From: Azolla caroliniana
Taxonomy: Eukaryota; Plantae; Polypodiophyta
Direction: 5' to 3'
DNA length: 64,000 nucleotides
Assembly: GCA_043228905.1 (NCBI GenBank)
Contig: JBHGNT010000006.1
Coordinates: 19,158,001 to 19,222,000 of the forward strand
Part shown: in pieces, positions 5,899 to 28,283 of the stretch
How the letters are laid out: each line of letters starts with the position of its first letter
How positions within the stretch are numbered: the stretch's first letter is position 1
Made by a program: the position numbers and the translations under genes
Notes under the pieces: model-generated
Database searches by the model: none
Seen by the model: only the letters and a program-made list of their open reading frames with translations
What the model was told of the DNA's origin: nothing

Positions 5899-5931
<33 letters not shown>

Positions 5932-5973: not shown

Positions 5974-5978
5974 CAGTT

Positions 5979-8643
5979 GTCCCCTACTAGGCCCGATTTG
6001 TTTATTTGGGTTCTAGCATGGTGAATATAGTCTTCTAGCGAGGAAAACTTCCTACAAGAGAGGTTCATTAAAGCTTGAGCTGCCTCGGTTCGAGAGGGAG
6101 GTTGTAGAAATTGGCCCTTGAAAACTGTTACAAAATCTGTCCAGGTATCGGGCAATTTCCCCAAAGTTCGGAGCCCACACCACCATGCAGCGGCCTTACC
6201 CCCTAATTCTCGGCTGACATATGCAATCTTCATACCATCTGGCGTGGGATAGAGCTCAAAATGAGACTCCCATCAACCCAGCCACATGCATATTGTTTCT
6301 TCGGTTCTTTCCTTTTCTTCTCTCGTAAATGGCTTTACGACAAATGATGGTTCACCCTAACACTCATCGGGTCTATTAGTGTCACATTGTAAACTAATGA
6401 CATGTGCCTCGAGAGCACTTTGAGATTGCCAAAGTTTGGACATCTAATGAGCAATTGAACTAAGGAAATCTTGTATTTGTAAGAAATACGACTCAATGGA
6501 GATTGCTCCAAGAGGGAGTTCCTTCCGCTTGAGCAGATGACATCAAGTCGTTATTCTGAGCCATTGAATGATTATTTCTGGCAAAGAAATAGGATAAGGT
6601 CAGACAAATAGTCATAACATCATGTCGTGATGTAAACATATAATGGGCAAACATTAATCGATATCATGATCTCACGTCAATACCCCTCAAGACGTATAAG
6701 ATGAGGTTCAAGATCATGTTACTATGGTAACACGAAGGTGTTTTAAAAACCATGGGGGTGACAAATGAATGTCTTTCCCTGATCTCTATATCGATTTTTT
6801 CATGGCGGCTCCTCGAGGCTCAACCATGTATGTTTGCGTCATGAATAGTTTATACACGAAAGAAATGTTAACAATGTATGTGGTTTCGGTTCTTTAAGTC
6901 CTATTACGAGGACCCTGAAGTGCAATTAGACCTAAAGTTTAAACACGTATTATAGTCATATGTATCAACAATGTTGTATGGTCTTGGTCATATTTGAACT
7001 CGAGACCTTGAGAACAAATACATTAAACACTTGAGCGAACCAAATAGGTTGCTCATGTTGAATGTTTAATGTTTTATGCATATAAGAGATATGCGATGCA
7101 TTTTCCCATATATGTTTTTTTAAAAGAAACATATATGTCAAGAGTCCTTATTTCCCTCTCATTTACCACAAACTATGTTTGTACGTTACCTAACCTCAAG
7201 TCTCATAATTACAATGGCATACGCCAAAGTGCAACCTAATGGTCAAGCCAAATGAGCCCTCTTTTTGTAGTAGGCCCACGTAGCCTATCACATGGTTACA
7301 TCATTATGAATGCCTTTCGTAAGAATGATCTCATAGTGGCATCGTGTCCATGTAATGAAAGAGGGATGTTGGATATGTGTGTCATAGGAGCGACCTCACA
7401 TGAAGTGGGTCAAGCCTTATGTTCTCAACATCATTGTGGCTATGAGCATTTCATTACGTAATGAAATCGAAGTGACCAACAGGGATGTCAACAAACAAAA
7501 TTGTTGAAAAAAGGATGGTGACTACGCCATTCTCACAAAAATGTGAGGACGGCCACCAAGATCCTTTCCCCGAAAAGGACAACATTCGATATAGAAATCA
7601 CGTTATAACTAACATGCACATATATATATATATATATACGATCAAATACGTATACACGTGACCACATATCTGTATATTAAGAAAATTTGTAACATCAAAT
7701 AGCCAACATATGATGAAATCGAGACACGTAATCGAGGCATATCGCCTCTACGCACACGAAACATCCAAAAATAAGGGTTAATTGTAATACGCAATTGAGG
7801 TATTGACCTCTTACGCATACGACATCAAACACATATCATTTACATAAAAATCAAGGTACTGACCTTATATGCATATGTAACATATGTATGTGAACATAAT
7901 ACTTTGAAGTATTAACCTCCTACGCAAATGTCAAATGAGGTATTGACCTCATACACATATGTAAAGGTTTTATACAACCAATTAATTACCAACAACATCA
8001 TTGAATCAATGAAAAAAAAAACATATTGACCATATACATGATTAGATAGGAGAAGAAAAAATAGGAAAAAAAACAAGAAAGAGTTACCGAAGTTCCTTTG
8101 TTGATCGCTATCTGGATCAAGGTCGACCACACGTCGAACGATCACCATCCATTAAGAACACAAAAACAAACAAAGGAAACATTAGAAACATAAGCTCGGA
8201 TACCAACTATTAGAGCGATGATCTAATCTAAGCATGTGATAAGGATAAAAGATAGATAGATAGAAAGGGGAGAGAGAAAGAAGGGTGTCGATCCACCCGA
8301 CCACCCCAGAGCGGAGGGATCGAGACGGACTCGAGCCTCGATCGACGTCCCATACCACCGTCGTGGCGTCGAGTCGTACCTGGTGCTGGCGCGCTCACTA
8401 CAAGAGTTGACCCATCACAACATCAGAGTCTCGACATAGTCAAAAGATGATGAAATGAGGGTAGCTAGGCCTCATATTTATAGCGAGACCCAAGGCCCCC
8501 AGGCAAGTTCACACTTGGCCTAATGGGTTGTCTCAATCCCAAGGATTAAAAGTAATCCTCCCCTTCTTTACACTCTCGTTTAACCCTCACACTTATCCAC
8601 GTGTATAGAATACTACGGTAAATTCTCACCATGGGATATTATA
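5979..8643 (-). mobile_element. 5' part of a degenerate Ty3/gypsy element (5' LTR ~8208-8643, PBS 8194-8205, long leader, gag remnant ~5979-6550), interrupted by copia element 1
   Basis: Minus-strand retrotransposon-gag motif (KIAYVSRELGGKAAAWW...TWTDFVTVFKGQF). The frame continues across the copia insertion into 1-26 (LVGDN|WLIACFV). PBS is TGGTATCCGAGC. LTR termini appear decayed from TG/CA to TA/TA. TATA on the minus strand near 8475-8483. Confidence 0.75.
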
Positions 8644-11434
8644 AGGTCATGCCCGTAACAAGACCAAAGGGGTCGAGGAGTGCAGAACCGAACTAGACGA
8701 GGAGCACGAGCAAGGCATGGAGACGCTAGGAAGAGTCGGATGTTGACTCAAGGAGAACCTCAAGTTGAGCTTGAGGGGGAGTGTTGAGCGAGCAAGCTCA
8801 CCTTGCGCGGATCGGCTGAAGAAGCCGAGAACCGGAATGGATTGGACCAATCGGTTAGGCCTGGATCGACTGAAGAAGACAAGAGCCTGATCGGACGGAG
8901 ACCGATCAGCGATGCCGAATCTGTAGGAGCCGGAAGGCTAGTTGGAAAGATATTCCGCAAAGGAATATATTTGGGAGTTGGTGTAGGGGCTCACTTATGA
9001 GCATTCAAGTATTGAAGGTACTTGTGTCAGTCCTTTTAAAGGCTTGTATAAAAGTGCTGGCATAAAAGGCCGACTCCTTCCAATTTGTATCCTAGTGTGA
9101 ACACGTCCAAATAGTTAGGGCTTAGTATATAATAAATAACCTAACGTTGTAATTGTTGACTTCTTGATCATTGTTATATTGTGAGTCTCTGAGAGAGAGA
9201 AAGAAAGAAAGAAAGAAAGAGAATAGAAATAACAAAGCTTCCATGAAAGCTTAAGAGTGTGCTCATCTTCTTATCTTCAATATTTCTATGTTGTTTGTTG
9301 AGTACCGCTAGACAGGTCTTCATACATACTTCTACACATATTCGAACACCATATCTCACAAGTGGTATCAAAGCGACTTGTTGTTCAGTAGCAACAAACA
9401 ATAGAAAAAGTTGAAAGAGAAAAGACCAGGTTAGTGAATCTTACCTCCATAAAGAACATGGCCTCAACATCCGGTATAGGAGTTGAGATCCGAAAGTTCG
9501 ATGGCAAAAGCTTTGCCCTATGGAAGGAGATGATGCAAGACGTGTTGATCATTCGAAGACAGGTTGAAGCTATCCGGCATAGCGAAAAGCCTGTTTCAAT
9601 GTCAGCCGAAGAGTGGAGATCAATAAATGAAATCACTCGCTCCACCATTCAGATGCACCTAGCCGAAAACGTCTACTTCAACATGGCAAAAGAGACGACA
9701 ACGTTCTCACTATGGGAGAAGTTATAGGTTGTATACCAAAAGAAGTCCTCATCTTCGAAATTAATATTAATTAGGCAACTATTCAATATGAAGATGAGAG
9801 AGTCGGACCCAGCCATCTCCCATATCAACACCTTCAGTCAGGTGTTGTCTGAACTCTCCTCACAAGAGATCAACTTCGAAGAAGAGGTGAAAGCCCTTGC
9901 CCTCCTATCGAGCTTGCCGATGAGTTGGGAAGTATTCTACACGACATTTGCCAATAGCCGTTCGATCCTAAATCTAGATGAGACGATCGGCCAAGTCCTC
10001 ACCGAGGACATTCGGCGAAAATCGATGGGACTCACCATCGATGAATCGACAAAAGCCCACCACTCGACCGAGTTGATCAATTGATTGAGTCGATCGAGAG
10101 AACAAGCCGACAGAACCGGTTGGAATACCAATTGGTCGAAAATGAGGGAAGATCGACAACGGTCGAAGTCGAGAACGGTCACTCGGGCGAATTCTGCACC
10201 CATTGCAGAAAAGCCAGTCACAATATTTCCGACTGCTAGTCAATGAAGAGGAAAGAGAGTGTTCAGCGATCAGAGCGGAATCGAGGACAATCCAACTCGA
10301 ACCACTCTCCAGTCGGCAACCAACTCAATGTTGCCGACACCCGATCAGGAGAAATCCTATCCTTAGAGGATTTGATGATCGAAGAAGTCCTCTACAATAT
10401 ACAAGATGCACACATGTGGTTACTGGACTCCGGTGCCACATTTCATGTAACCCCCAACATCGAATGGTTCTCGAACTATTCGGTCGGCGCTAGCAGCACA
10501 GTCCGACTAGGCAATGGGCAAGATTGCAAAATCGCCGAAGTAGGGGAAGCACCAATTCAATTGTCAAATGGCAACACAATTGTCCTGCACCAAGTCCGGC
10601 ACGTACCCGCATTCAAAAGGAGTTTGGTCTCCATCGGCATGCTAGCCGAAGATGGGTACTGAATGAGTCGACATGGATGATCAGTCGTGGAAATCTGAAG
10701 ATTGGAAGTGGGCACAAGTACAACAACTTGTACCCAATGATGACGATCAATCCATAAGGGTCCGTGAACGTAGACGAAAAGATTGACCCAAACCTATGGC
10801 ATGGCTGACTTGACCATATGGCTCAAGCCGGACTCGATCGGTTGACGGCAGTTGGCTACATTCCAAAACTCCAAGCAAAGATAGACTTCTATGAGCATTG
10901 TTGATATGGGAAACTGGCCCGAAGTCCACACTCTCTTCATTACGAGACGGTACGACATCCCCTCGAGCTCGTGCACACAGACATATGTTGGCCTATGCTT
11001 GAGAGATCACTAGGAGGCTCCCGGTACTTCATCACATTTGTAGATGATTGTACACGAAAAGTCTGGGCCTATTCAATTAGGTCAAAAGAAGAAGCAGTCG
11101 AGGTCTTCACTCAGTGGATAATTGAAGTGGAGAACCGGTCAAGATACAGAGTGAAGACACTCCAATCTGACAATGGAAGAGAATACACCTCCCGAGCCAT
11201 CAAACAGTACCTGTCCGACAAAGGGATCCTGCACCAAAAGACCATACCATACACACCCATGCATAATGGAATAGCAGAATGGATCAACTGAACGGTCTAG
11301 GAGAGGGTGACGACAATGCTCCAAAAAGCTGGACTGAAGCTGGAGTTTTGGGTCGAAGCATTGTCGACAACAATATATCTAATCAATCTATCGACGTCAA
11401 AAGAAATCATACTTGAAGTGCCACAGGCACTATG

Positions 11435-14400
11435 TGTTAAGAAAACGTGAAGAAGGCACTCGGGCTCTTCTTATGTATGCGCGGCGGATCGTAGTGTGCT
11501 GGATCGTTAGCGTGCTCTAAACAGACAGAGAAAGGAAAGGGGACTTACCTCTGTAGTAGCAAAATGGTTTTCTTCTATTACATGTAGAGCTCAACTTGCT
11601 CTCGTCAGTCTTCTGGTCTCTCACTCTCTCTCAGAGTTCTCTACTCTCTATTCTCTGTTTTTTCTTACTACTTCTTTCCTATTCACTCACTCTTACTTTT
11701 ACCTAAGTCATAAGTTATTACACATGCAGCTAATTAGCTGCCAGTAGCTAATTAGCTGTCAGTCGCTAAATAGCTGTTCACTAGCTAATTAGTTGTCACT
11801 AGCTAAATAGCTGTTTTACCTTTTTGTTCACTAGTAGCTAAATAGCTACTATAGCTTATTTCTCATAAGCATCGCATACCATGTTGAGCTTGCTTCTCAA
11901 CACTCCCCCTCAAGCTCAACTTATCCTTTCTTGGGGTTCTCTTCAATCTTCTTTTCCATTTTGCTTTTTAGCCATCTCATCAATGTTTACAACTCCCATC
12001 ATGTTCCGAAACTGTGTATGTTTTTCCACACTCAATCCCTTTGTGAGAATATCAGCAACCTGCTGATTTGTATTCACATACACCAGATCAACTTCTCCTT
12101 CAATCACTTTTTCTCTAACAAAGTGATAATGCACCTCAATGTGCTTTGTTCTTGCATGGAACACTGGGTTCTTTGCAAGCTGAATGCTGCTCATATTGTC
12201 ACACCAGATTGTGACAGTACCGTCTATATACTCTCCCAAATCAGCAAGCAATCTTCTAATCCATACCTCTTCACAAGTGGCTATGGCAGCTCCTCTGTAC
12301 TCAGCTTCAGTACTAGACAATGCAACAGTAGCCTGTTTCTTGCTACTCCATGAAATACCTGCACTTCCCAAGGTAAACATGTATCCACTTGTGGATCTCC
12401 TGTCTGTTTGGCTTCCAGCCCAATCAGCATCTGTATATCCTTCCAGATTTATGTCTAGATCAGCCCTGTAAAATAGTCCAAAGTTCTGAGTTGCTTTTAC
12501 ATACCTCAGAATCCTTCTGATGCAGTCCAAATGTGGCTTTGTTGGCTGTTGCATAAACTAGCTGACTAATCCAACTGCATAACTCAAATCAGGTCTTGTT
12601 ATGGTCAAATAAATAAGGCTGCCCACCATAGACCTATACATGTTTACATCTTCTATTTTGGCTCCCAAATCAGCCCTCAATTTGCAGTTTTTATCAAGTG
12701 GTACAGCAATAGGTTTGCATCCAAGCATACCATACTTTTTCAACATAGTTGTTGCATACTGTTTTTGCAACATACATATACCACTTTCAGATCTGATGAT
12801 TTCAATACCAAGAAAATATCTCAGATCTCCCAAATCTTTCACATGAAACTGCATTTCCAGATTTTTTTTCAACTTTCTTATTTCATCCACGGAATCTCCT
12901 CCAATAATCAAATCATCTACATAGATCAGAATAATAACAATGCAATCATTTTCACTTTTTACATACAAAGAAGGATCAGCTTTTGACATTTTGAAACCAA
13001 GATTTTTCAGAGAATCTGAAAGTTCTCTGTGCCATGCTCTTGGTGCCTGTTTCAGTCCATAGAGAGCTTTTTTCAGCTTACATACATAATCAGGATGTTT
13101 CTTATCTTCAAAACCTGGTGGTTGACTCATATACACTTCTTCTTCCAAGTTACCATGTAAAAAAGCATTTTTTACATCCATGTGATGCAAAATCCATTTT
13201 CTGGCTGCTCCTACAGCAAGTAGTGTTCTCAAGGTTGCCATCTTTGCAACCGGTGCAAAAGTCTCATCATAATCAATCCCTTGCATCTGAGCATATCCTT
13301 TTGCAACCAATCTTGCTTTATGTCTACTTACATTCCCATTGGAGTCATGCTTTGTCTTGTAGACCCATTTGCAGCCTACCACATTTTTCTCTTTTGGTAA
13401 CTTCACTAAATCCCACGTTTTGTTCTCAGCCAATGCATCAATCTCTTCTTGCATTGCATCCATCCATTTCTTCTCAGATTTTGCTTCTTCAAAGCTGTTT
13501 GGGTCAGGGATCTGTACCACCTTAGACATATATGCATAGTGCATAGCCATATATGTATCATACCCAAATCTTTCCACAGTCTTTTTCTCTCTATCTGATC
13601 TTCTCAGTTTCTGATTTGCATTCTTTATTGCCTTTTCCATACCAGGGATTTTCATTTCCTGTATTCCAAGGAACTCATCCAAAGACATATCTGAATCTTC
13701 ATCTTCCATGTTTTTTGATAGGTCATCCGGGATTTCATACTCTGGCATTTTCTGTTTTCCTTTTTTGTCATCAGATTTTTTCTGTCCAGTTTTTCCACTC
13801 CATGAATTTGAATCAGATTTACCATCTGAGCTTTTTGATGGTCCAGAACATTCTGTTGATGTTGGACTTTGCTGTCCAACCTTGTCTCCATCTCTGTGAC
13901 AGTCTTCTACATTTTCTGATCTGTCTTTGTCTTCAATCTCATTGTCTTCATCAGTCTCTGGATTCTGTTTTGGACTATACCAGCTGGCTAACTCATCAAA
14001 GATTACATCCCTACTTGTCACAATCTTCTTTGTTACAGGGTTATAGCATCTATACCCTTTTTGTTCTTCTGAATAGCCAACAAAAATACATTTTTCTGCC
14101 TTTGGATCCAGCTTACTTCTTACTTCTGCAGGCACATGTACATATGCAAGGCATCCAAACACTTTCAAGTGTTGTAAGCTAGGCTTCCTGCCATAAAAAC
14201 ACTCTTCAGGAGTTGCCTCATGTACTCCTGATGTAATACATCTATTTAAAATGTAATTTGTTGTATTTACAGCTTCTGCCCAATAGTATAATGGCATGTT
14301 CTTCTCAGTCATCATTGCCCTTGCTATGTTCACCAAAGTTCTGTTTTTCCTCTCAGCAACTCCATTTTGCTGTGGAGTATATTAGCATGTGAACTGTCTT

Positions 14401-16880
14401 CTTATTCCCTGATTACACAAAAAATCAGAAAATTCATTGGAGAAATACTCTCCTCCTCCATCAGATCTCAAACATTTTATCCTTGTACCAGCCTGCTTTT
14501 CTACCATGCATTTAAACTTACGAAAACAGTCAAATACTTCACTTTTCTCCTTCATGAAGTACACCCATGTCTTCCGTGAACAATCATCAATAAATGTAAC
14601 ATAAAATCTGCATCCACCAATAGATGCATTCTTTGTTGGTCCCCATACATCTGTATGTACCAAATCCAACAGATTTTTGCTTACATGTCTCTCATGAGGG
14701 AATGGCAACCTGTTTTGCTTACCATATTGACATGCTTCACATACTTTTCCCATTTCACACTTTTTCAAGTTTGGCAGTCCAGCCACTGCATCTTTTCTCA
14801 ACATATTCTTTAATGTTTGCATACTTATATGGCCAATCCTTTTATGCCACATTTCCACATCTGAGATTACACTCGTTCCATTTGCAAACATGGCTGAAAT
14901 CTGTTTGGGCATTTCTACATCCAAGATAAACATTCTTCCTTGTCTCTTCCCTTTTGCAATGAGCTTCCCATTCTTTTCTATATAGCATCCACTTTGCTTA
15001 AACTTCACTTGCATACCTTGCTCTACAATCTGTCCAACAGAAATCAGATTCTTAGCAAGGTTTGGAACATGCATCACATTCAACATATACTTGGTTTTTC
15101 CTCTTTCTTCCCACAATGGGATATCTCCAACATGTTTTATTTGGTGAGTTATGTCATCACCTGTTTGTACATAACCAGGAACCTCTGGTTCTCTTAAACT
15201 CTCAAACCAATTTGCATGTCCAGTCATATGGTTAGATGCCCCCGAGTCTACATACCTCGTAAACTCTTCATTACATTTCTGTGAGCTTTCAGCCACTGCT
15301 GCTATCTCATGTTGCACTACAAAAACACCTTCCTTTTCACAATCTTCACTAGTAGAGGCATAGTTACTCTGTTGTCCTTTTCCTCTTTTCTCATCATTTT
15401 GTTTCTTATAACATTCAGCCTGTGTATGGCCTGGTTTACCACAATACCAGCAGCCATCATCATTTACATAAGTTTGCTTACCTCTACCTCGGTTGCTCCC
15501 CCTGCCTCTGTTGTTGTTTCCTCCTCTATGAGCTTGTTGTCCTCTTCCTTGAAAGCCATTATTATTGGTTCTTCCTGAGCCAAATCTTCCATGGCCTCTT
15601 CCTCGGCCTCTTCCGGCATTATTATAGAGGGCTTGCCCCTCGTTCTCTGAGTTTCCTTTATTTGCATCATCCATCTGATTCCTTTCCTCTACCACATGCA
15701 TTGAGACCAGATCTGAAAAACTTGGGATATTATCCCTTGTGAGCATAGAAGTTTTAAAACTCTTGTATTGAGGTCCTAAGCCTCTTAAGCATATTTCCAC
15801 TTTGTCATCATCTTCTATCTTCACATTGATAGAAGCAAGTGATTCACATATACTCTTGATTTTTAGGGCATATTCATTTATTGACATCTTACCTTTCTCC
15901 AAGGTATTTAGCTCAGTCTTTAACTGGAGCTTTCTAGCCTTTGTGTTCACAGCAAACAGTTTTACCAAGTTGTCCCAAGCTTCTTTTGGGAGCATAGCAT
16001 CTTGTATATGCCCAAGCATTGAATCTGAGATGCTGAGTGATAGCCAATGCATTACTTTCCTTGCCCCTTGATTCCAATCTTTAAATGCCTTAATATGTGC
16101 AGCTGTTGCATTCTCTTCTGGGATCTCTGGAGCCTCTTCTAGGTCTCCTTCAATGTAATCCCAGTATCCTTTCCCCATCAGAAAGTTTGTCATTCTGAAT
16201 TTCCACGCCGGGAAATTGTTTTTATCTAATTTCTCTGTGACCATTTGGCCTACATTCTCTGCAGCCATTTTTTTCCTCCCAAAAAACCAGGGTTTTGCTT
16301 TAGTTACTTCAACAAGTAACTTTCTGATTTCTGATCAGCAACCAGAGAAATAACTTTCTCAGATTAAGGCACTGCTATACTCTTCCTTACGAGCTACTCT
16401 GCTCTGATACCATGTTAAGAAAACGTGAAGAAGGCACTCGGGCTCTTCTTATGTATGCGCGGCGGATCGTAGTGTGTTGGATCGTTAGCGTGCTCTAAAC
16501 AGACAGAGAAAGGAAAGGGGACTTACCTCTGTAGTAGCAAAATGGTTTTCTTCTATTACATGTAGAGCTCAACTTGCTCTCGTCAGTCTTCTGGTCTCTC
16601 ACTCTCTCTCAGAGTTCTCTACTCTCTATTCTCTGTTTTTTCTTACTACTTCTTTCCTATTCACTCACTCTTACTTTTACCTAAGTCATAAGTTATTACA
16701 CATGCAGCTAATTAGCTGCCAGTAGCTAATTAGCTGTCAGTCGCTAAATAGCTGTTCACTAGCTAATTAGCTGTCACTAGCTAAATAGCTGTTTTACCTT
16801 TTTGTTCACTAGTAGCTAAATAGCTACTATAGCTTATTTCTCATAAGCATCGCATACCATGTTGAGCTTGCTTCTCAACA
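11435..16880 (-). mobile_element. Full-length, very young Ty1/copia element (AT-rich relative of element 1)
   Basis: 468-bp LTRs at 16413-16880 (5') and 11435-11902 (3'), differing at 2 positions by my reading. TSD CTATG at 11430-11434 and 16881-16885. PBS at 16401-16412. PPT at 11903-11911. Confidence 0.97.
11943..16268 (-). pseudogene. Copia Gag-Pol with two in-frame stops (14382-14384 TAA, 12558-12560 TAG)
   Basis: Three ORFs in one frame. Motifs [30 protein letters not shown] and ADILTK. The stops replace R in CRYTP and Q in VSQFMQ. Confidence 0.93.
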
Positions 16881-19800
16881 CTATGGTCATGCAAATAGCC
16901 GACCTACAATAGGCTCCACATATTCGGATGCGAAGCCTACGCATTCATCCCTAGGGAGAAAAGAACCAAGTTGGCACCCCATGCAACGAAATGCATATTT
17001 CTCGGTTATGGAACCGATGGGGAATTCGGCTACAGGCTATGGGACCCAGAGAACCGGAAATTGATTCGGAGTAGTGATGTGGTCTTCAATGAAGACTCTA
17101 TTCTCTCTGCGAGGAACCAGCAGAAAATAGTTGGTAAAAAGGTCTCTTTCGAAGTTGATAGAGACGTCGTAGAAAGACCGACCCAACGGGTTGAATCAGA
17201 GATTCAACAAACAGTTGAACTCAACCAAGCCGACAACACACCTGTCGACTCCAAATCGGTAGGAGGTCCACTAGTCTAACTCGAAGACAAAGCCAAATCG
17301 ACAAGAGTCGCAAAAGGCAAAGTCAACAAGGTGCGAGCCGAAGACGACAAAGTCAACCCAACTAAGACACCCAAGGTCAAAGGGAAAAACATATCTGAGT
17401 CAGCTAAGTTCCCCCCTCCTGAAGAAGGGGAGGATGATGTGACCTCACTGAAATACTATCATAGGGGCGAGTCACCCAACATGACTACTTATATAAACGG
17501 TTCAGGAAGTACCTATCGACCAACATAGTCGATCGAAGGATCCAAACCAATCAATACAGCACCCAAGAGATCTGGACGAGTTCGAAGGCCAACAAAGTTC
17601 TAACAATCGACCTCGACTATGTCAACTACACCGGTGCAGGCGAACCAAGCACATACGAAGAAGCTAAAGCAGCATCGGACGTTGATACATGGCTACAAGC
17701 CATGAGATGTGAGATGGACTCAATCCATCATAACAATACATGGGAGTTGGTCGAACTACCAGCTAGCAGAAAGTCATTGCCCTACAAATGGGTTTTCAAA
17801 CACAAATATGTATCTGACTCAGAGAAGCCCAAGTACAAAGCTCAGCTCATCGCAAAGGGCTTCAAGCAAGAACATGGAGTTGACCACGACTAGATATTTT
17901 CTCCAGTAGTCAAGATGACCACCTTTCGACTCCTACTAGGGGTCATGATAACAGAAGACCTAGAGTTGGAGCAACTAGACGTCAAGACGGCATTCCTACA
18001 CGGAGATCTGGAAGAAGACATCGTCTCAACCGGAAGACTTCACGGCGATAGGGGAGGAAAGTCACCTCATATGCCGATTGAAGAAAAACCTTTATGGCTA
18101 GAAGTTTGACTCCTACACTACGCAACTTGGATACCGTCGATCTGACTCCAACCCATGTCTATATACTTAGCAATTGTCCAACGAGTCCTGGATCTATCTA
18201 ATCCTATACATCGATGACATGCTGATTGCAGGGAGAAATGAAGCAGAAATCAAAAAGCTAAAGTGGAACCTTCACGAGAAGTTCGCGATGAAGGAACCAC
18301 GACAAGCCCAACACATATTGGGCATGAGAATAGAGTGAAATCGGATGACAAAGACTCTCCAACTCTCCCAGTCCGATTATATTCGAAAGGTGTTGAAACG
18401 CTTCAACATGGAGAACGTGAAGCTTGCACCAACACCGCTTCCGAAGTCGATCCGACTATCAGATAGAGACTCTCCTTCGACGAAAGAGGGGAAAGAGCTT
18501 AATGGAAAGATACCCTACGCATCGGCCGTAGGAAGTATCGTGTACGCGATGGTGGCGACCCGACCTGATCTTGCTTATGTTGTAGGGGTCATCAGTTGAT
18601 ATATGTCAAACCCAGAACGGAAGCATTGGGAGGTCATCAAGCACATCTTCAAGTACCTGAGAGGGACCGAAGATGTACAACTGACTGTCGGATTGACAAA
18701 CCCGACCGAAGTCGAAGGCTACACCAATTCCTATTACGTCGGGAATTCGGACAATCGGAAGTCCACATCAAGTTATGTTTTCACCTATGGCGGCGGCGCC
18801 ATATCATGGAGGTCGAAGCTGCAAGAGTGCATGACTCTGTCTGCCACAGAGGTTGAGTATATAGCAGAGCAACATCAGATGCAGTGAAAGAAGCAATCTG
18901 GTTGCACCGGTTGTCAACTGACTTCTTTGTGACAAGTTGAATTGACCATCAAGCGTCAACCATCTGTTGCGACTCACATAGCACAATACACCTCATCAAT
19001 AATCATGTCTATCATGCGAAGACAAAGCATATTGAGGTGCGGTATCATCATATTCAAGAGCTTGTAACAGAGAAGAAGCTTGATGTTTGGAAGATTGACA
19101 TTGAGGTGAACATCACCGATTTCCTGAGGAAGCCACTCCCAAATCAACGTTTCGGAGCACTGAGGACAAAGATGGGACTATGACAAGCGATCGAGCAGAA
19201 GAAAGCCGAACACGGAGTAGAAGGTAAGTTGAAGATCCAACCAACTCGGACAAGCCAAATCAAGCTAGATACCGACCTTATCTCTGTCGACTTGGCTATA
19301 TGTCGAACAACTTGTAACCATAACTTTAGATTAAAGTTGTAATCTAGGGTTACGGAGGAGATAACCTCATACAATTGTAATTAGAAAAATTAGTCCTTTT
19401 ACGGGGGAGTTTGTTGGCATAAAAGGCCAACACCTTCCAATTTGTATCCTAGTGTAAACACGTCCAAATAGTTAGGGCTTTGTATATAAGGAATAACTTA
19501 ACGTTGTAACAGATGACTTATTGATCATTCTTATATTGTGAGTCTCTAAGAGAGAGAGAGAACAGACATAACAAAGCTTCCATTAAAGCTTAAGAGCGTG
19601 TTCATCTTCTTGTCTTCAATCTTTCTATGTTGTTTGCTTAGTACTTCTAGACAAGTCCTCATACATACTTCTGCACATATTCGAACACCATATCTCACAA
19701 AAAGTGCTCTTTGAGCACATTCGATGTACAAAGTATTGAGTTTATTTTTGAAATAGAGTTTATGTTCGGCTCTCTTTGTCTCTCCCGTGTACTCTATATT

Positions 19801-19918: not shown

Positions 19919-21579
19919 ACTCACTATACAATGTTAGGTTTGGGCTTATATACTCAAGCCCTAACTCGAGAACATATTCACACTTAAGGTTACAATGTGG
20001 ATGGAGTTGGCCTTTTATGCCAATGGGTAATAGATCTTAGCAGGCATAGTTCATCGTTGGTTTGTCTCTTTGAAAGTAGCTTCAAACTCAGTGTGAAAGG
20101 CTGGGAATTCATCCAAAAGCAGTGATGTTGTTTCCATCAAGGGAGTGAATCACAACTCCATTGGTCCCGTCAATAGTGAACCCAAGAGACCGACCTGGTA
20201 GGAACCTGTGGCGCTTCCAAAAGCAATGATGTTGTTTCCATCAAGGGAGTGAACCACGCCTCCATTGGTCCCATCAACAGTGAACCCAAGAGACCGACCT
20301 GGTAGGAACCTGTGGTGTAACGAGGCGGATGATGAGGCAAATTTGATTAAGGAAACTGCGTAGTCGTGACCGCGTTCCATCAAACTTATCGAGAAGGTTG
20401 ACCTTGGGTTCATAGTAGGGTGGTAGTGGGTTGAGTTTGATGGTTGGGGTAACTGAGGATGTGGCAAACTGAAGATCAAGTAAAGATTTACAAAGGGTAG
20501 CATTCTCAGCTAGGAGTTGTTTTAAAGTTGTGAGTATTTGAGGTAGGCTATCGGTAGGATGTGACATGGCTTCCGATGTGAGGTTAACGGAGAGGGTGTC
20601 ACATACATGACAACAATTATGTCAAGATTCGAACTCTTGACCTCTTGTATTAGATAATCAAGTGTTATATTGTAACCAACACATCCCGGTATATGATCGT
20701 GTTATGTATATCTTCGTAGATTATCTATTCACGTTCTAGGAGTTTTTAGAAAGTTCTAGAACTTGAAGGTTCTAGAGGGTTCTAGAATATTCTCCAAAAT
20801 ATTCTCTAGAATATTCAAATGCATGTACTTCAACTCACAATATAAATACTTGTAACCTCCTTGGTCCCTTTCAAGGGATTCAACACCAGTCATTGACGCA
20901 TGAATATAGTGTTCTCGTTTCACCTCATCTTGTTTCATTGATCTTCATTTCTATCTTCATACACTTGTGTCTTTCCTAGCTTCTTGGTGTGTTCGTGACA
21001 ATTTGAATCCCTTCCAACTGGAAGCATCAACCGTCTTCATCATCAACCTTGCTTCTAGAGTTACCATCATCATCGTCCTTGCTTCAAGAGTTACCGTCAT
21101 CAACATCCTTGTCTTTGACATCATCATTTTTAGCACCTCTTCGCCCAACCTTCATTGTCATCAACATTACTTTACATGGTCTTTCATTATCATCATTGCT
21201 CCGCTCTCTTCATTGTCATTGTTATCATTTATAGGTATCCTTTTGCATCACAATTTTGGTGAGGATTGCGTTCAATCGCTCACCTTCCCAGTTCATGTGG
21301 GGGTTACAACTGCTCACTCTCCTGGTGGGGATCGAATCATTGCTCGCTTGCACTCCATTTTCATTTTAGTTCAAGTTTTGCACTACTTCTCATTCGCGAG
21401 GACCGATTTCGATCGCACACTTTCTAGTTTCAGTGGGGGTCACAACCGCTCACTCTCTTGGTGGGGATCGCGTTGGTTTCTCGCTAGCGCTGCCGTTTGT
21501 GCCGTTTTTGGGGTCAACCTCGACTATTTACCCTCTCATAATAGAAGAAGGCGAGTCGACCGATTCACTTGCACTCCTT

Positions 21580-22060
21580 CACTCATTCGTGTTCTAGTTC
21601 CCGGTAAGGACCGCATGGTCGCTCACTCCCGTTCGTGTTCCAGTTTTTGGTTAGGACCACATGGACGCTCACTCCCTTTTGTGTTCTAGTTCTCGGTGAG
21701 GACCACATGGTCGCTCACGCCCGTTCGTGTTTCCGATGAGGACCGCACATGGTCGCTCATGTTCTGATTCCCAATGACGGCCACACATGGTTGCTCACGC
21801 TTGCTCGTGTTCAAGTTCTCGGTGAGGACCGCATGGTCGCTCACTCTCATTCGTGTTCCAACTCCTTGTGAGGACCGCATGGTCACTCACTCTCGTTCGT
21901 GTTCCAGTTTTCGGTGAGGACTCACTCCCGTTCATGTTCCAGTTCCCAGTGAGAACCGCATGGTCACTCACGCCCATTCATGTTCCCGATGAGGACTGCA
22001 CATAGTCGCTCATGTCCGTTGGTGTTCGTGTTTCTAGTGAGGACAACACATGGTTTCTCA
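21580..22060 (+). repeat. Tandem array of about 10 degenerate 30-47 bp hairpin-forming units
   Basis: Recurrent core GTGAGGACCGCATGGTCGCTCAC followed by CCGTTCGTGTTC. Confidence 0.85.
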
Positions 22061-22488
22061 TGCCCACCACTTTTTGTTCACCCCTACACTGTGCTTTCGA
22101 AAAGGCGGTTATAAAGGGGAGGATAATGTCACAGGCATGTCCACAACTATGTCGAGATTTGAACTCTTGACCTCTTGTATTAAATAATCAAGTGTTATAT
22201 TGTAACCAACACATCCAAGTACATGATCGTGTTATGTATATCTTCGTAGATTATCTATTCATGTTCTTGCTATGACTGTAGGATCGTGACAAGGAGTGCA
22301 AGCGAACTAGCACAACTATTGAGATGATATGGGAAGAGTAAGAAAAGAAATAAAGCAATGATGCAAGTGAAACTAAGGTGAGTAGGATTAGAGGTGAACA
22401 AGAGTAAAAGAGAATGAGAGAATGAGATGAAAGACAAAGAGAAGAGTGAGTGAGAAAAAAGAAAAACTTAAGAAATTTTCATTAGAAA

Positions 22489-22540
22489 GACCTTGTGCAA
22501 ACTAGTTTCGCTCTAGGTAGAGCTCATTAGTGCCAAGGTC
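22489..22540 (-). ncRNA. Minimal type I hammerhead ribozyme motif (this copy has a G5>A core change)
   Basis: Minus strand reads GACCTTG-GCA CTAATGA GCTCT-ACCT-AGAGC GAAA CTAG TT TGC-A-CAAGGTC. Stem I is 10 bp with a bulge, stem II is 5 bp, and stem III is the minimal palindrome ACTAGT. Confidence 0.82.
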
Positions 22541-22754
22541 ATTTACAACAAGAGGGTAGGTTTATATAGGGGGAAGAGAGAGAGAGAGAGAGAGAGAGAG
22601 AATAGGAGTTTAATGATGGGAGAGAGGGAAACGGGGAATTGTGATAGGTAATGGATTGGTTAGTGAAAGTGGGTTAGAGGGGGGTTATATGTATGTATAT
22701 GATAAGTGATAGGTGGGGGTGGGTGTGGGGGTGGGATATAAAAGGCATATAGTA

Positions 22755-24617
22755 TTAAGTGGGAGTATTTATGGATTTATATTTAGTTTTGACGAGAAGG
22801 GAATGAATGGACTTAGACTTAGTCCAACATATGAAGGGTCGCAGTAGTTCGGATAGTTGGGGATGTGTGGCTAAATATGTGTGGAGGTTTTCTAGCATGT
22901 CGTGAATTCCTAATCTAGGGGTATCTTTCGTATACCTAAGTTTGAAGATGACAGGTATAAGGGTACTTTTAGGTTTTCTGCTAAATACTAGTGATTTCCT
23001 AACGCTAAATGGCACCTTTTTATAATTCTCTAATATAAAAGAAAGGGGATATCCTCTCTTAACTAATCTACTAAAAAATAGTTTTTTCATTCGAAGGAAA
23101 CCTAAGGGGGTACTTTCTCTAATTAGGTATCGTTTTAGTTCATTAATAATAAAATGACGTTTTAAGTGAAGGGGGTGAACTGACGAGAATGAGAGATATT
23201 GGTAGGCATTTTGGGGCTTTTGGTAGCAATTAAAGGAGAAATGTGAATTCTTTAGGTTAATCCATAAATCTAAGAACGGTAATCTAAAGGGAGAAGTGAT
23301 GATGGTAATTTTGATGCAATTATTAGTGGAGGTGTTATAAAACTGGAGGTAATTTTCTAATTCGGGTTTAGTACCTATCCATATCCCGAATGCATCATCT
23401 ATATATCTAGTGAAATAAAAAAGATTAGGGTGTGATGGTTGGGAGTTCTCTAAGTGAGCTAAGAATAGGCATGCATAAACTACAGAAAAATTACTACCCA
23501 TGGTTGTACCCTTGACTTTTTGATAGATCATGTCATCAAAGGATAGAAAGTGATATTCTAACGTGAGTGCGCTAAGTGTATAGATAAGGTTAGTTTTAGA
23601 AGATGAAAAATGTGGGGTAATCATTTTTCGTAAAGCTTGGAGTCCTAACCTAGGGGGTATGTTGGGATATAAAGATTCAACATCAAAGGTGAAGATAAAG
23701 CTATTAGGGGGTGGGTTGAGATGTTCTAAAGTCTGGACAAGGGAATGTGAGTCTTTCAAATATTGTTTTTGAAGGAGAAGGATAGGCATGAGTTGGTGGT
23801 GAAGCCATTTTGATGTTTGTTCAAAAAGGGAGTTATTGTATGAGCAAATAGGTCTAAAACCTATTGGGTTTTTATGGAGTTTTGGGAGGAAATAGATATT
23901 GCATACTTTGTACCCTTTTGAGGGTTTATGTAGTATGTAATTGGCTTCTATGTTGGATAGGGTACCAAGATGGTTATTAACAATGCTTTTCAATCTATAG
24001 GATAATTCCTCAAGTGGATAGTGGGAGACTTTTTTATATGTATTAGTATCAGAAAGGTGTTCTATAGCTTTGTTATAGTACGTGTCCTTATCAAGAACAC
24101 ACACTCCAACATTCTTGTCAGCAGGTAGGATTATGATTTTGTTGTTTTTCTTAAGAGATTGTAAGGCTAGTGATAAGTGAGGTGCAATCCTAGTGGGTTT
24201 TAATTTGAGTGTATGAAGTGTGTCCCTAAAGATAGTTTGGTGTTTAGATATAATGTTTTCTAGGGGAGTGTACTTAGTAGTAGGTTGCCAACTAGGGTTA
24301 GGTAGCTTAAAGGGATTTTGGGGCAAATTATCCACATCTTTAAAAAAATGTTTAAGTCGAAGGGTCCTACTTAGGCTATCAAATTCTTTAAGTAGGGTAG
24401 GGGATGATGGTGGAGAAGATGGGAGGATGTGTTTCAAACCTAGGCTAAGGAGTTGTGTCTCATGTTTAGAGAGGGAATAATTAGAGTGGTTGTGGATCCT
24501 ACTAATTCTAGGTTTATTAAGGAAAGGTGTCCAAAATTTATTACGAGGTTTCCTACTATGGGTCTTTTTCACATATGGGGAGAAGGGAAAATTAGATGTA
24601 TGACGTCCTAACCACAT
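22755..24617 (-). CDS. Penelope-like reverse transcriptase (no endonuclease domain visible)
   Basis: Motifs LLSLGLKH, LPADKNVG, YFLPKLHK, FRPICS, FDVESLYPNIP, GTTMGSNFS, RYIDDAFGIW, LPFLDL and YQKP...YL...S.HP are diagnostic of PLE RTs. The ORF ends after the thumb region with no GIY-YIG motif. Confidence 0.9.
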   Translation of the reverse strand: MWLGRHTSNFPFSPYVKKTHSRKPRNKFWTPFLNKPRISRIHNHSNYSLSKHETQLLSLGLKHILPSSPPSSPTLLKEFDSLSRTLRLKHFFKDVDNLPQNPFKLPNPSWQPTTKYTPLENIISKHQTIFRDTLHTLKLKPTRIAPHLSLALQSLKKNNKIIILPADKNVGVCVLDKDTYYNKAIEHLSDTNTYKKVSHYPLEELSYRLKSIVNNHLGTLSNIEANYILHKPSKGYKVCNIYFLPKLHKNPIGFRPICSYNNSLFEQTSKWLHHQLMPILLLQKQYLKDSHSLVQTLEHLNPPPNSFIFTFDVESLYPNIPPRLGLQALRKMITPHFSSSKTNLIYTLSALTLEYHFLSFDDMIYQKVKGTTMGSNFSVVYACLFLAHLENSQPSHPNLFYFTRYIDDAFGIWIGTKPELENYLQFYNTSTNNCIKITIITSPFRLPFLDLWINLKNSHFSFNCYQKPQNAYQYLSFSSVHPLHLKRHFIINELKRYLIRESTPLGFLRMKKLFFSRLVKRGYPLSFILENYKKVPFSVRKSLVFSRKPKSTLIPVIFKLRYTKDTPRLGIHDMLENLHTYLATHPQLSELLRPFICWTKSKSIHSLLVKTKYKSINTPT

Positions 24618-24721
24618 GAAAGTATCTAAAGTAGAAGTAGGTCTATCGAGAAGGTAAAAGAGACGTTTCGCGGGATGTATGGCTTGCCGAAACTATTTAC
24701 TATCCCGTTTGGCACGCCTAG

Positions 24722-25681
24722 CTACACGTTTTTTGTCCTAACATTATTACATGGGAAAGTTTGTCGTTTTGCGGGAAGGGGGCGATTATTGTGAGTACGG
24801 ATAGGTTGTTTTCTATGAGGGATTTCATATAAGTGTGGGGGAAATTTAGAGGGTGCGGTAGAATATTGAAATCTACTAGAAGTAGAAGGGGAGTTATGTG
24901 TAAAGAAGGGGGGGGTATGTGTAGGAAATGCATGAAAAGGGGGAGGGGTATAGTTTGGAAATAGGGAAACGTTGTGGGGGTTATTAGGGGGGAAATGCAT
25001 AGGGGCATGGTTAAAAAATGGGGGAGGGGTATGAGGGGGGTTTATAGAAAATAAAGGGGGGGCATGCATCAAATTTGTAGGAAGTAAGGAGGGGGGGGGA
25101 GGGGCATGATTAGGGTTAAACACATATGGGAAGTGAGAGGGTATGTTTGAAATTGTCTGCAAGGGTGGGCTGGGGAGGAGAGCAGGAGGAGGAGGGCCGA
25201 GAGGGAAAGATGGAAGGTCGTTCGTGCCATGGCTTGCATGATCTCCTGCACAACCGCCATGGGGATACACTTCTTGTCTTATGTTGGCACGTGTGCCGCT
25301 TCCATAAGATGTACGGCCTTCGCATTGGATGGACCTCCCATATCGGCCCGTAGGATAATTACCGCCACGGCTCATGTGGCCGCCGTTATGGTGTGACAAT
25401 CGTCCACCATCGCCGCACGTGTAGCCACTATCGAAGTAAGATCTTCGCTCTCTGTTGTATCCTTCCAATTCAAATTCCGGCGAGGTATGGTGGTGATGTA
25501 TAGGCTCGTGTGAGGCTGAAATATATTGGTTTGAATTTCATTCGATGTTGGACAGATGCCCTCGGTGGGTATGTCGCTTCCGCCGCGCATGAGGGAACCG
25601 TGTGCCCTATATGGTTAGTTGGGTTGTAGATAGGATTAAAGAAAGGGCGATTAGGGTTATAAAGTAAGACTCGTGGGCCAT
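24722..25681 (-). pseudogene. PLE ORF2: low-complexity protein (Gly/Arg/Tyr-rich, then Pro/Phe/His-rich, then basic), probably fused to RT by a -1 frameshift
   Basis: Open from 25468 to 24722. It extends in frame to an ATG in good context at 25681 if one TAG and one TGA are read as CAG and CGA. Confidence 0.5.
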
Positions 25682-25736
25682 AATGGTTTTGATGAGGATT
25701 TCTACTTACTTGATTATTTGTTATGTTGCAGATGTA

Positions 25737-26756
25737 TTACGGGAGGAGGTTCCGGTGGTTCAACGATCGAGGATTTCTTTTTGCTGGAAAATTAGGGTTA
25801 GGGTTAGCAATAGGGTTAGATTTTTGAAAGGGATTAGGTTTTAGGTTCTTTGTAGAGGATTTTAGTTTGGGGTTGGGGTTAGAGTTAGAGTTAGCATTAG
25901 CTTTAGGGTTAGGTTTTTGAATGGGATCATTTGTAGAGGATTTCTTTGGTTTTTCACTCCCAATGTAATTTGGAATTGTAAAGGGACTGTTATAAACATT
26001 ATAATCTTCATTATCACTCATCTCTATGTCGATTTCTCTAACATTGTTGTGCATGCTACTCTCTGCTTTGTCTCTACCGATAGTGGCCTTCTTTCTAATA
26101 GCCGCGGTAATAGAATATGTAACTTCTACTTCATCACAAGATCTAAGTATTTCTGTGGCAAACTCTTGCTGCCAATGTGCCATTCTATCTTGGAATGAAT
26201 CAGGACCTACTAGTGATGTTACTTCTTGTATGAATGGGGGTTCTTGCATTGTTTCCATTATTTTTACTATGTCGGTACGAACTTGATTAGGAAAATCATC
26301 TATGGCTTTGGTTAATGCGTGGACTAATAAGTCTAAATGCCTAATATAGCATGTTGTAAGATCCTTGCGATATTGTGTTGTGAGGGCTAGAAATTCTGTT
26401 CGCAAGCTCGAATTGATCTCCTCATGACCTATTGTTAATTTCGGTGGGTGAACCCTAAGATTATGAGGGGTGATGTCATGTGAGTTTAGATAAGAGATAT
26501 GCGTATACGTATTCTTAGCTTCTTGTGTGCGCCTATAAAGATGTTTAAATTCAGATGCCACTTTACGCTTATAGTCGTCAAAGTGGTGTGAGGACATATA
26601 TGAGTCGGAGGAATTTACCTTTTCATTACTAGGATTAGAGTTGAGGAAAGTTGGGGATAATGTAGGGGCGCGTTGTCGTTTATTAGAACGTTTGTTGGCG
26701 CTTCTAGGTTTTGTTGGTGTCGGTGTAGTTGATGCCATCGCTGCAAAAGTCATCAT
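25737..26756 (-). CDS. PLE ORF1, unknown function (basic N-terminus, predicted helical core, Asn-Pro-Lys-rich tail)
   Basis: About 340 open codons inside the PLE boundaries, on the same strand as RT. ATGs at 26756 and 26738. No recognisable domain. Confidence 0.6.
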   Translation of the reverse strand: MMTFAAMASTTPTPTKPRSANKRSNKRQRAPTLSPTFLNSNPSNEKVNSSDSYMSSHHFDDYKRKVASEFKHLYRRTQEAKNTYTHISYLNSHDITPHNLRVHPPKLTIGHEEINSSLRTEFLALTTQYRKDLTTCYIRHLDLLVHALTKAIDDFPNQVRTDIVKIMETMQEPPFIQEVTSLVGPDSFQDRMAHWQQEFATEILRSCDEVEVTYSITAAIRKKATIGRDKAESSMHNNVREIDIEMSDNEDYNVYNSPFTIPNYIGSEKPKKSSTNDPIQKPNPKANANSNSNPNPKLKSSTKNLKPNPFQKSNPIANPNPNFPAKRNPRSLNHRNLLP

Positions 26757-28283
26757 ATGTTGTGGAGTTTTTAGAATGTTCAAGTTCTAGAGGGTTCTAG
26801 AATATTCTCCAAAATATTCTCTAGAATATTCTAATGCATGTACTTCAACTCAAAATATAAATACTTGTAACCTCCTCGGTCCCTTTCAAGGGATTCAACA
26901 CCAGTCATTGACGCATGAATATAGTGTTCTCATTTCGCCTCATTTTGTCTCATTGATCTTCATTTCTATCTTCATACTCTTGTGTCTTTCCCAGCTTCTT
27001 GGTGCGTTCGTGACAGAGGGGGAGAGAGCAAAAGGAAGGTGAACAAACTATTAAAGACAAAAGTAAAAACGGAATTACAAGAGCTTACTAGTTGGCGCAA
27101 GGACGCGATTGTCAAACGCAAAAGAGTGAATATCATTAACTAGTGTTGTTCACCTTGAATTCATTCAAGGTGAACTCAAATCTTTATACTAAGCGGCGTG
27201 CATGCCTATTGCATGCATGTGATACAATAGAGCATGTATGTACACATGCATGTGCCAAGTGTATATAATACAAGGGAGCAAACATGCACATGATCGTATA
27301 CTGGATATGTTGGTTAACACATAACACTCGATTATAATGCAAGATGTCAAGAGTTAGAATCTTGACATAACCACTGTCATGTCCGTGACAATATCGCTCT
27401 TTCACTTTGAGTTCACCAAATAACGTCGCCAAGTTACATGCATTCGTGTGCTACTTGAGCGGGACCACCAGGGACTTGAACTAGAGAGGATGGATGATTC
27501 GAAGGCTCGTCAGTGTTGAATGATTGTCAAAGTGGAAAGATTGCCGAACTCGAAGGCTCTATAGAGTCGAAGGTAGTAGCAATTCGAACAGTGAGTTATG
27601 TTAATTAATCTAAAGAAACATGAGATTATGAATATATTTTACAATACTAAGTCTAGATTTTCCTTTATATAAGCTAAAACATTTCATTATGAAAAAAATT
27701 CCCTTTATAAAATAGGGTTTACAAGATGTTGGAGTTTTTTATTACAATAATGATAATTTTTCAGGAATTAAACATGAACTAAGAACCCTAAATCTTAATG
27801 AAGAAGATGAAAAATTAAACCCTAAAACAATAAGTATCATGTGGAGAATAAGAAGAAGATAAAGACAAAAAGAATAAGAGTGAAGCTTCTGGGAGAAAAT
27901 CCTCGAGTTTCGATGTAAACTCCCAACAATCAATGGCCGCGTTGCCTCTTGTTGATAACGGTTTTACACGCCCTCTTGATTTGCTACCTTCGCTTCCTAA
28001 TCCAACAAAGTTTTTACATCTCTTTCTCTCTCTCCCCCCTTTATTTGAATTCTCTTCACCCTTTTATAAGATTAAGGAGGCTTTCTTCTCAAATAAAAGT
28101 ATGTGCTTTTTTAATTTTATTGCACGTCATGCTTTTTCTTTCCTAAATTAACAATAAAGTCACAAAATGTCTTCACACCATCAATTTATCAATCAACCTT
28201 TTAAATAATCCTAGGTTAACTAAAATTCTCCAATTGAACATCCCACATCACAACAACGAGAAACTCAAATATCTAGTGATCGA

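What the first reader, a model, noticed from the sequence alone, without database searches (positions are those of the whole stretch)
22268..26763. Endonuclease-less, multi-ORF Penelope-like element inserted at an internal site in a plant genome
Seen: a PLE-type RT ORF that stops after the thumb region, with no GIY-YIG motif on either side. Two further same-strand ORFs lie upstream, a frameshift signal leads into RT, and the 3' UTR holds a hammerhead. Known: endonuclease-deficient PLEs (Athena in bdelloids, Coprina in fungi, Selaginella elements) are mostly telomere-associated, and bdelloid Terminons carry extra ORFs and hammerheads. Inference: this may be an undescribed plant lineage with ORF1 + ORF2/RT architecture that mobilises to internal sites without its own nuclease. 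It is the best candidate for a new system in this window.
Basis: partly seen in the sequence, partly recalled or inferred. Interest (0 to 1): 0.85.

Follow-up and report, generated by a model that had tools for sequence, protein, structure and literature searches.

The report
Nuclease-free fern retroelement patching a break
This is a decayed copy of a fern jumping gene that has a telomerase-like copying enzyme but no DNA-cutting enzyme; it sits inside an older repeat, where it likely patched an existing chromosome break, and its kind is already known from spikemoss and conifers.

Summary
The element is real and endonuclease-less, but it has two ORFs, not three, and its lineage is known. Relatives close head-to-tail into a ~4.6-kb unit with no GIY-YIG, so nothing was deleted here. 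'ORF1' and 'ORF2' are one 720-840-aa ORF1, broken in this copy by a stop and an 8-nt deletion. The -1 frameshift signal and the hammerhead are conserved in the family but damaged here. The RT falls in a land-plant clade with Selaginella, Ginkgo and Cryptomeria elements; endonuclease-less PLEs are published for Selaginella and conifers. The host is a fern. The copy interrupts an LTR whose sister LTR gives the empty site: no duplication, 1-bp deletion, 4-nt microhomology at both joints. Nine of 10 complete 3' ends map 16-39 nt past a conserved motif, about 240 nt beyond the hammerhead; eight join non-telomeric DNA, one joins telomere repeats. Best reading: a Coprina-type element whose subfamily lacks the telomere-pairing tail and primes at DNA breaks. 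The scan noted this family before on other pieces of this genome. New variant of a known kind; interest 0.45.

The parts
22264..26767 (-). Whole PLE insertion including both 4-nt microhomologies (unique part 22268-26763); about 100 nt short of one ~4.6-kb unit
   Evidence: (joint 26767->22263)
24722..26767 (-). ORF1 remnant (one ORF of 722-725 aa in closest intact relatives): basic patch, predicted coiled-coil helical domain, Asn-Pro repeats, Pro-rich tail; start codon missing (5' truncation)
25737..25739 (-). Copy-specific premature stop in ORF1
   Evidence: (other contigs read G at 25739)
25543..25549 (-). Approximate place of the copy-specific 8-nt deletion that creates the apparent ORF2; a 12-nt in-frame deletion lies near 25502-25506
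   Evidence: missing relative to 4 of 4 relatives aligned
24728..24734 (-). A_AAA_AAC slippery heptamer, in frame, two codons before the ORF1 stop
24681..24718 (-). 12-bp stimulatory hairpin, 9 nt after the heptamer; weakened in this copy; premature TAG at 24695-24693 in the -1 frame
22755..24734 (-). PLE reverse transcriptase frame (DKN motif, YIDD, thumb), no endonuclease, no large insertion between motifs A and B
22561..22568 (-). TATA-like box 38 nt upstream of the hammerhead core (predicted promoter for a downstream unit)
22489..22540 (-). Type I hammerhead with palindromic helix III and U at the cleavage position; core G-to-A change at 22528 in this copy
22273..22299 (-). Conserved GCACUCCU motif (22299-22290) plus small hairpin (22284-22273, damaged here) that marks the usual 3' end of insertions
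22264..22267 (-). 3' junction microhomology (AGAA)
26764..26767 (-). 5' junction microhomology (CTCC)
20597..21000 (+). Uninterrupted sister LTR (404 bp) of the host non-coding LTR element: the empty site
22127..22267 (+). Left part of the interrupted LTR
26764..27015 (+). Right part of the interrupted LTR; the host element is framed by a 5-bp duplication GAGGG (20592-20596, 27016-27020)

Best explanation
This is a 5'-truncated, decayed copy of a two-ORF, endonuclease-less Penelope-like retroelement of a fern, from the same land-plant clade as the Selaginella Coprina-type elements, and it likely entered an internal LTR by reverse transcription primed at an existing DNA break. Shown: ORF1 + RT layout, no endonuclease in the closed unit, conserved slippery site and hairpin, hammerhead, terminal repeat in front of every ORF1 start, preferred 3' end, clean empty site with 1-bp loss and 4-nt microhomologies. 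Inferred: (1) a TATA box in the upstream terminal repeat starts the RNA at about hammerhead helix I; (2) ORF1 is made from it and a -1 frameshift gives a rarer ORF1-RT fusion; (3) RT binds the GCACUCCU motif and hairpin and starts copying just 3' of it, on RNA not cut at the 3' hammerhead; (4) the primer is any free DNA 3' end that pairs with the bases after the hairpin: telomere overhangs for subfamilies that have CCCUAAA there (L026/L027/L031, L063), broken ends with a few matching bases for subfamilies that do not, including this one; (5) the far end of the cDNA is joined by microhomology-mediated repair; (6) re-priming on the terminal repeat gives head-to-tail units.
For: Unit closes with about 510 nt between RT stop and next ORF1 start; no GIY-YIG pattern in 0 of 69 loci; contig in run X11 joins 26767 back to 22263. 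The 29 top RT homologues are 378-658 aa and none carries PF01541; the full-length ones among the 25 aligned end after the same post-thumb motif. Land-plant clade support 1.0 in a 129-sequence FastTree tree. Empty site versus filled site: no duplication, 1 bp lost, 4-nt homology at each joint; chance of both about 3e-4 under a simple base-composition model. 9 of 10 complete 3' ends at +16 to +39 after the motif; 8 of those go into DNA with no telomere heptamer and no PLE match, 1 (L031) into a CCCTAAA array. L063 also ends in a CCCTAAA array and L032 begins with one before a truncated ORF1. TATA 36-39 or 51-53 nt before the core in 28 of 35 motif hits versus 18 of 482 background windows.
Against: Only one empty site is available, so the junction signature rests on n=1. 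Microhomology plus a small deletion is also what DNA-templated patching leaves. The related loci are short-read metagenome contigs of collapsed repeats: related copies are not independent, long tandems and mixed-subfamily tandems may be assembly paths, and telomere junctions may be under-sampled, so the 8:1 ratio is not a genome proportion. One complete end (L021) runs 120 nt past the motif, and many other copies end at scattered places inside RT or the UTR. The motif hairpin is short (4 pairs) and the region does not fold better than shuffles (z -0.8). No fungal Coprina or Athena sequence was in my tree. No expression, cleavage, frameshift or priming was shown.
Confidence: 0.72

Rival explanations
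1. The insert was copied from another genomic copy as DNA during break repair (strand invasion or microhomology-mediated patching); the family itself moves only at chromosome ends or within its arrays.
For: No duplication, 1-bp loss and microhomology at both joints fit DNA patching equally well; tandem units offer donors.
Against: DNA patching predicts arbitrary ends, yet this copy and 7 other non-telomeric copies stop within a 19-nt window after the same motif, across several subfamilies.
Confidence: 0.12
2. The element borrows a nick made by another element's endonuclease (LINE APE or an EN+ PLE) and inserts by ordinary target-primed reverse transcription.
For: LINE APE genes exist in the same assemblies (L022/L023 flank); defined 3' ends fit target priming.
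Against: No target-site duplication at the one empty site; flanks after the 8 non-telomeric 3' ends share no evident sequence.
Confidence: 0.1
3. The hammerheads cut out a unit-length RNA that circularises, and RT copies the circle; tandems and this near-unit-length insert come from rolling-circle copying that starts at the motif. This changes steps 3 and 6 of the best reading, not the break-priming step.
For: Palindromic helix III kept through compensatory changes in 22 of 22 distinct motifs; a possibly-RNA contig closes the unit; insert is 100 nt short of one unit.
Against: Run X11 is only guessed to be RNA, and a tandem or terminal repeat gives the same joint; U at the cleavage position in all 31 plant-clade motifs is, from recalled ribozyme rules, a slow site.
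Confidence: 0.2
4. An EN+ element that lost its GIY-YIG domain in this copy, or a former telomeric addition that became internal by fusion.
For: Some sister families are telomere-joined.
Against: The unit closes without room for an endonuclease. Both halves of the target LTR are collinear with the sister LTR and the host element keeps its 5-bp duplication; no telomere heptamer dimer in the 64-kb window.
Confidence: 0.02

Closest known systems
Selaginella moellendorffii EN-less PLEs (Coprina Sm1/Sm2; row 'Selagine1' in Fig. S1 of PMC8557442)
   Same: Same RT clade: over the 76 residues printed in the supplement I count by eye about 74% identity to P0023 and about 51% to the window RT; no endonuclease; canonical type I hammerhead in terminal repeats (PMC4209133 passages).
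   Different: Host is a fern; this subfamily has no telomere repeat after the hammerhead and this copy is internal. That 'Selagine1' is Sm1 is my inference. Whether Sm1/Sm2 have this ORF1, frameshift or 3' motif was not testable.
Conifer EN(-)PLEs (Pinus taeda, Picea abies; Lin et al. 2016, seen only as cited in PMC9033089)
   Same: EN-less plant PLEs; Cryptomeria and Ginkgo proteins fall in the same clade.
   Different: No conifer DNA context was available; that the published conifer elements are this clade is likely but untested.
Athena / Terminon elements of bdelloid rotifers and fungal Coprina
   Same: Coiled-coil ORF1, frameshift into RT, hammerhead near the 3' end, head-to-tail units, 5'-truncated copies capped by telomere repeats (PMC6431247 section 8; PMC8557442 Fig. 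1 legend; L032 here).
   Different: In Terminons the telomere-complementary stretch lies immediately after the hammerhead; here the usual 3' end is about 240 nt further on, behind a second motif. Hairpin rather than a conserved pseudoknot. No accessory ORFs; unit 4.6 kb.
PLE-X (EN-less Chlamys-related) of Selaginella and Chara
   Same: EN-less, hammerhead-bearing plant PLEs with non-telomeric insertion (rDNA or genome-wide; PMC8557442).
   Different: PLE-X has the CxC motif and the insertion-in-fingers region; the window RT has the short A-to-B spacing and no rRNA family was found around 20 loci.
Endonuclease-independent L1 insertion at DNA breaks (recalled)
   Same: No duplication, small target deletion, microhomology at joints.
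   Different: Different RT class; here the endonuclease is absent by design.

Membership tests
Penelope-like elements | PLE-type RT (DKG/DKN motif, core motifs, thumb) | tested here: met
   ADKN, FDVESLYP, YIDD; homologues include GIY-YIG-bearing PLEs
Penelope-like elements | Pseudo-LTR / partial tandem structure, 5' truncation | tested here: met
   terminal repeat precedes ORF1 start in 23 of 35 motif rows; this copy itself is 5'-truncated and has none
Penelope-like elements | Hammerhead in the terminal repeat | tested here: met
   92% of cells paired, 10 of 12 pairs with two-sided changes, 22 distinct sequences; slid controls 27-43% paired
Coprina (plant Sm1/Sm2 branch) | No GIY-YIG endonuclease in the full unit | tested here: met
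Coprina (plant Sm1/Sm2 branch) | RT groups with Selaginella EN-less elements | tested here: met
   clade support 1.0 with P0023; supplement row
Coprina (plant Sm1/Sm2 branch) | RT groups with fungal Coprina against Athena, Neptune, Naiad/Chlamys | not testable with these tools
   no named reference sequences of these clades were returned by the searches
Coprina (plant Sm1/Sm2 branch) | Reverse-complement telomere repeats at the 3' end and attachment to telomeres | tested here: not met
   this copy and its subfamily: 0 CCCTAAA between hammerhead and ORF1 start, internal site. Met in sister families L026/L027/L031/L032 and L063. So I file it as a variant of the clade, not a typical member
Athena / Terminon | Coiled-coil ORF1 with -1 frameshift into RT | tested here: met
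   36 of 51 RT frames have the heptamer two codons before the ORF1 stop; long helices, pLDDT 83
Athena / Terminon | Pseudoknot after the slippery site | tested here: not met
   hairpin 95% paired; the one candidate second helix I tested only 52%
Athena / Terminon | Telomere-complementary stretch directly after the hammerhead; giant multi-ORF units | tested here: not met
Naiad / Chlamys / PLE-X | N-terminal GIY-YIG or CxC motif, insertion in fingers | tested here: not met
Penelope/Poseidon (Dryad), Neptune | C-terminal GIY-YIG with Zn-finger motifs | tested here: not met

The most novel reading that the evidence does not exclude
Ferns carry an active radiation of telomerase-like retroelements in which a conserved RNA motif and hairpin, not the hammerhead, fixes where copying starts, as a template boundary does in telomerase RNA, and the few bases behind it act as a swappable address: telomere repeats send a subfamily to chromosome tips, their loss turns it into a genome-wide, nuclease-free break-filling element.
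Probability: 0.3. Interest if true: 0.75.

Novelty: new variant of a known kind. Interest (0 to 1): 0.45.

Why it matters
PLE reverse transcriptases are the closest mobile relatives of telomerase, and how the endonuclease-less ones reach internal sites is stated as open in PMC8557442. This locus gives a clean filled/empty pair, and the clade offers closely related subfamilies with and without a telomere-pairing tail, with intact ORFs, so primer choice can be tested directly. It also extends the plant EN-less lineage to ferns, and a 2025 review (PMC12477314) calls telomere-associated elements rare in plants. The architecture itself is not new.

Tried and rejected
No whole genome is held, so copy number and distance to telomeres were not measured. 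Three-ORF reading rejected. TSD reading of the look-alike bases at the two joints rejected: those bases belong to the element in other copies. Asn-Pro repeats in ORF1 give CCCTAA runs but are coding and internal; not counted as telomere joints. Conserved pseudoknot not supported for the one pairing tested. rDNA targeting: no Rfam family at gathering score in 20 of 69 loci. Viral contigs: no relative. ORF1: no Pfam family, no Atlas hit, no Foldseek match at E<=0.001, VIA best Z 9.1 among unrelated helical bundles; none of this shows a new fold. No RNA holder is on record; X11 and X17 are guesses, so expression is open. Contig depths show many copies but were not calibrated to a copy number. 266-aa low-complexity frame in the 3' UTR of L026/L027/L031 has no Pfam hit and is treated as chance. 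My first slippery-site count (43 of 51) used a loose rule; the strict count is 36 of 51, the 15 others being 5 broken frames, 7 distant plant families and 3 outgroup loci. Gladyshev & Arkhipova 2007, Lin et al. 2016 and Arkhipova et al. 2017 are not held; fern EN-less PLEs may be mentioned there or in supplements I could not see.

Full report
1. Observation. The minus strand holds stop-to-stop frames at 26786-25737 (349 aa), 25537-24722 (271 aa) and 24692-22755 (645 aa). The last is a PLE-type RT (weak RVT_1 match; 125 homologues at E<=1e-10). It ends just after the thumb. A hammerhead-like fold lies at 22540-22489. A neighbouring PPR gene has its best named homologues in Adiantum and Ceratopteris (38-53% identity among the first rows), so the host is a fern other than these two.

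2. The family has no endonuclease. The 29 best RT homologues (37-96% identity) are 378-658 aa and none has the GIY-YIG Pfam mark. A scan of metagenome contigs gave 69 loci. In many, the 3' region of one unit runs straight into the ORF1 start of the next; the gap from RT stop to next ORF1 start is about 510 nt in L002. A GIY-YIG pattern matched 0 of 69 loci. A contig from run X11 joins 26767 back to 22263 with about 100 nt between. The unit is therefore about 4.6 kb and this copy lacks only about 100 nt, which hold the real ORF1 start.

3. Two ORFs, not three. Against its four closest relatives the window copy lacks 8 nt near 25545 and 12 nt near 25505, and other contigs read a sense codon at the 25739-25737 stop. 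In 4 of the 5 loci with RT identity of 95% or more (L001, L002, L004, L005; not L003) the region is one open frame up to the slippery site; complete ORF1s are 722-842 aa. Its conserved part is predicted as long helices (pLDDT 83), occurs in distant plant families too (L041, L042, L046-L049, L058) and has no informative family or fold match. An in-frame A_AAA_AAC two codons before the ORF1 stop is present in 36 of 51 RT frames examined. A 12-bp hairpin follows (95% of cells paired, few covarying pairs); the pseudoknot helix that this copy could form is not conserved (52%). In this copy the hairpin is weakened (z -1.6 against -3.9 in L004) and a TAG interrupts the -1 frame, so it is dead.

4. 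RNA signals. The hammerhead is supported by covariation: 92% paired, 10 of 12 pairs with two-sided changes in 22 distinct sequences (related sequences inflate the shuffle control, but slid controls fall to 27-43%). Helix III is a palindrome kept in four versions, the form described as dimer-acting (PMC4209133, passages). A TATA-like box lies 36-39 nt (21 hits) or 51-53 nt (7 hits) before the core in 28 of 35 motif hits, against 18 of 482 background windows (one of the 35, L044, is a false hit). About 240 nt past the hammerhead is a nearly invariant GCACUCCU motif with a 4-bp hairpin (3 of 4 pairs covary), 43-47 nt before the next ORF1 start.

5. Ends. Of 10 copies whose 3' end could be set against a tandem relative, 9 stop 16-39 nt after the motif and 1 (L021) at +120. 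Eight of the nine, the window copy among them, continue into DNA with no telomere heptamer and no PLE match; L031 continues into a CCCTAAA array, and its subfamily has CCCTAAA just at that place. L063, a distant family, also ends in such an array, and L032 starts with one before a truncated ORF1. Of 23 unique-flank 5' joints listed, none had two or more telomere heptamers. Many other ends fall inside RT or the UTR and may be truncations or later insertions. These contigs are collapsed short-read assemblies from related samples; the counts show that both junction types exist, not their share of the genome.

6. The insertion site. The host is a non-coding element with 404-bp LTRs, 6.1% apart, framed by a 5-bp duplication. 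The PLE interrupts one LTR only, so it came later. Against the sister LTR and against contigs that skip the insert there is no duplication, one base is lost, and four bases are shared by element and target at each joint (chance of both about 3e-4). The window has no telomere heptamer dimer. The nearest relative, L001, is 98.4% identical over 3773 aligned bases.

7. Placement. In a FastTree tree of 129 RT cores the window group forms a clade (support 1.0) with Selaginella moellendorffii P0023, Ginkgo and Cryptomeria proteins; none of the 30 pattern-positive EN proteins falls in it (proteins under 480 aa, P0001-P0009, P0013, P0029, P0116 onwards and broken loci were left out). The 'Selagine1' row in Fig. 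S1 of PMC8557442 carries the clade's motifs. Telomere-tailed subfamilies sit in the sister branch of the window's group, so loss of the tail is plausible, but repeated gain is not excluded.

8. What is known. Read: PMC8557442 (parts 1-6 of 10 of the text, two supplement searches), PMC6431247 (section 8, passages), and passages of PMC4209133, PMC13159263, PMC12477314, PMC9033089, PMC9370799. They describe two-ORF EN-less PLEs of 4-6 kb, coiled-coil ORF1 with frameshift, hammerheads, head-to-tail chains, telomere attachment, Sm1/Sm2 as Coprina, EN-less PLEs in Pinus and Picea, and EN-less PLE-X with non-telomeric insertion. I found no description of fern members or of the second 3' motif in seven searches (one search returned 0 papers, and none of the 25 listed held the word Penelope), but the three primary papers were not available.

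9. Mechanism and verdict. Most likely the RNA begins at the hammerhead, yields ORF1 and by -1 frameshift an ORF1-RT fusion, and RT starts behind the motif hairpin on whatever DNA end pairs with the next few bases: a telomere overhang for tailed subfamilies, a break for tail-less ones. Steps on transcription, frameshifting, cleavage and priming are inferred. Identity as a plant EN-less PLE is near certain; break-primed insertion about 0.7. Earlier notes of this scan on other pieces of the same genome reached a similar filing; I saw them after my own junction tests and do not count them as support. New variant of a known kind, interest 0.45.

Noticed in passing
window 27-5985 and 11435-16793: Two Ty1/copia elements with near-intact frames; LTR stretches 98% and 100% identical, the second apparently nested between another LTR pair (9055-9361, 19412-19700).
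   Followed up: no
window 20597-27015: Non-coding LTR element (TRIM-like) with 404-bp LTRs, 46-bp internal tandem repeats and a 5-bp duplication; very high contig depth; an inverted LTR fragment lies at 27335-27390.
   Followed up: partly
window 49262-51484: Fern-type PPR gene, 740-aa frame.
   Followed up: partly
window 60360-60953: 197-aa frame that looks like an exon of a TLDc-domain gene (recalled resemblance, untested).
   Followed up: no
L002:3803-3892 and equivalents: The first 90 nt of ORF1 are 92-100% identical between subfamilies whose next 90 nt are 80-91% identical; possibly an RNA signal or a template-switch site, or a point where assemblies cross over.
   Followed up: partly
L004 second unit versus L010: Nearly the same ORF1 is paired with two RT types (about 67% and 84% to the window): recombination between subfamilies or an assembly chimera.
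   Followed up: no
hammerheads of the plant clade: All 31 plant-clade motifs have U at the cleavage position (GUU or AUU), unlike two of three outgroup motifs.
   Followed up: no
L027:1-250: Inverted RT fragment of the L063 family joined to a 5'-truncated unit of another family.
   Followed up: no
L022/L023:1-3200; L019:6356-7057: Flanks hold an inverted LINE (APE, zinc knuckle) and a homeodomain frame.
   Followed up: no
L065, L066, L068, L069: Distant EN-less family (25-28% RT identity) from other metagenomes with an upstream ORF, hammerhead and, in L069, a following ORF1 copy.
   Followed up: no
L041-L049: Distant plant families have a long ORF1/RT overlap with candidate slippery sites not followed by a near stop.
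   Followed up: no
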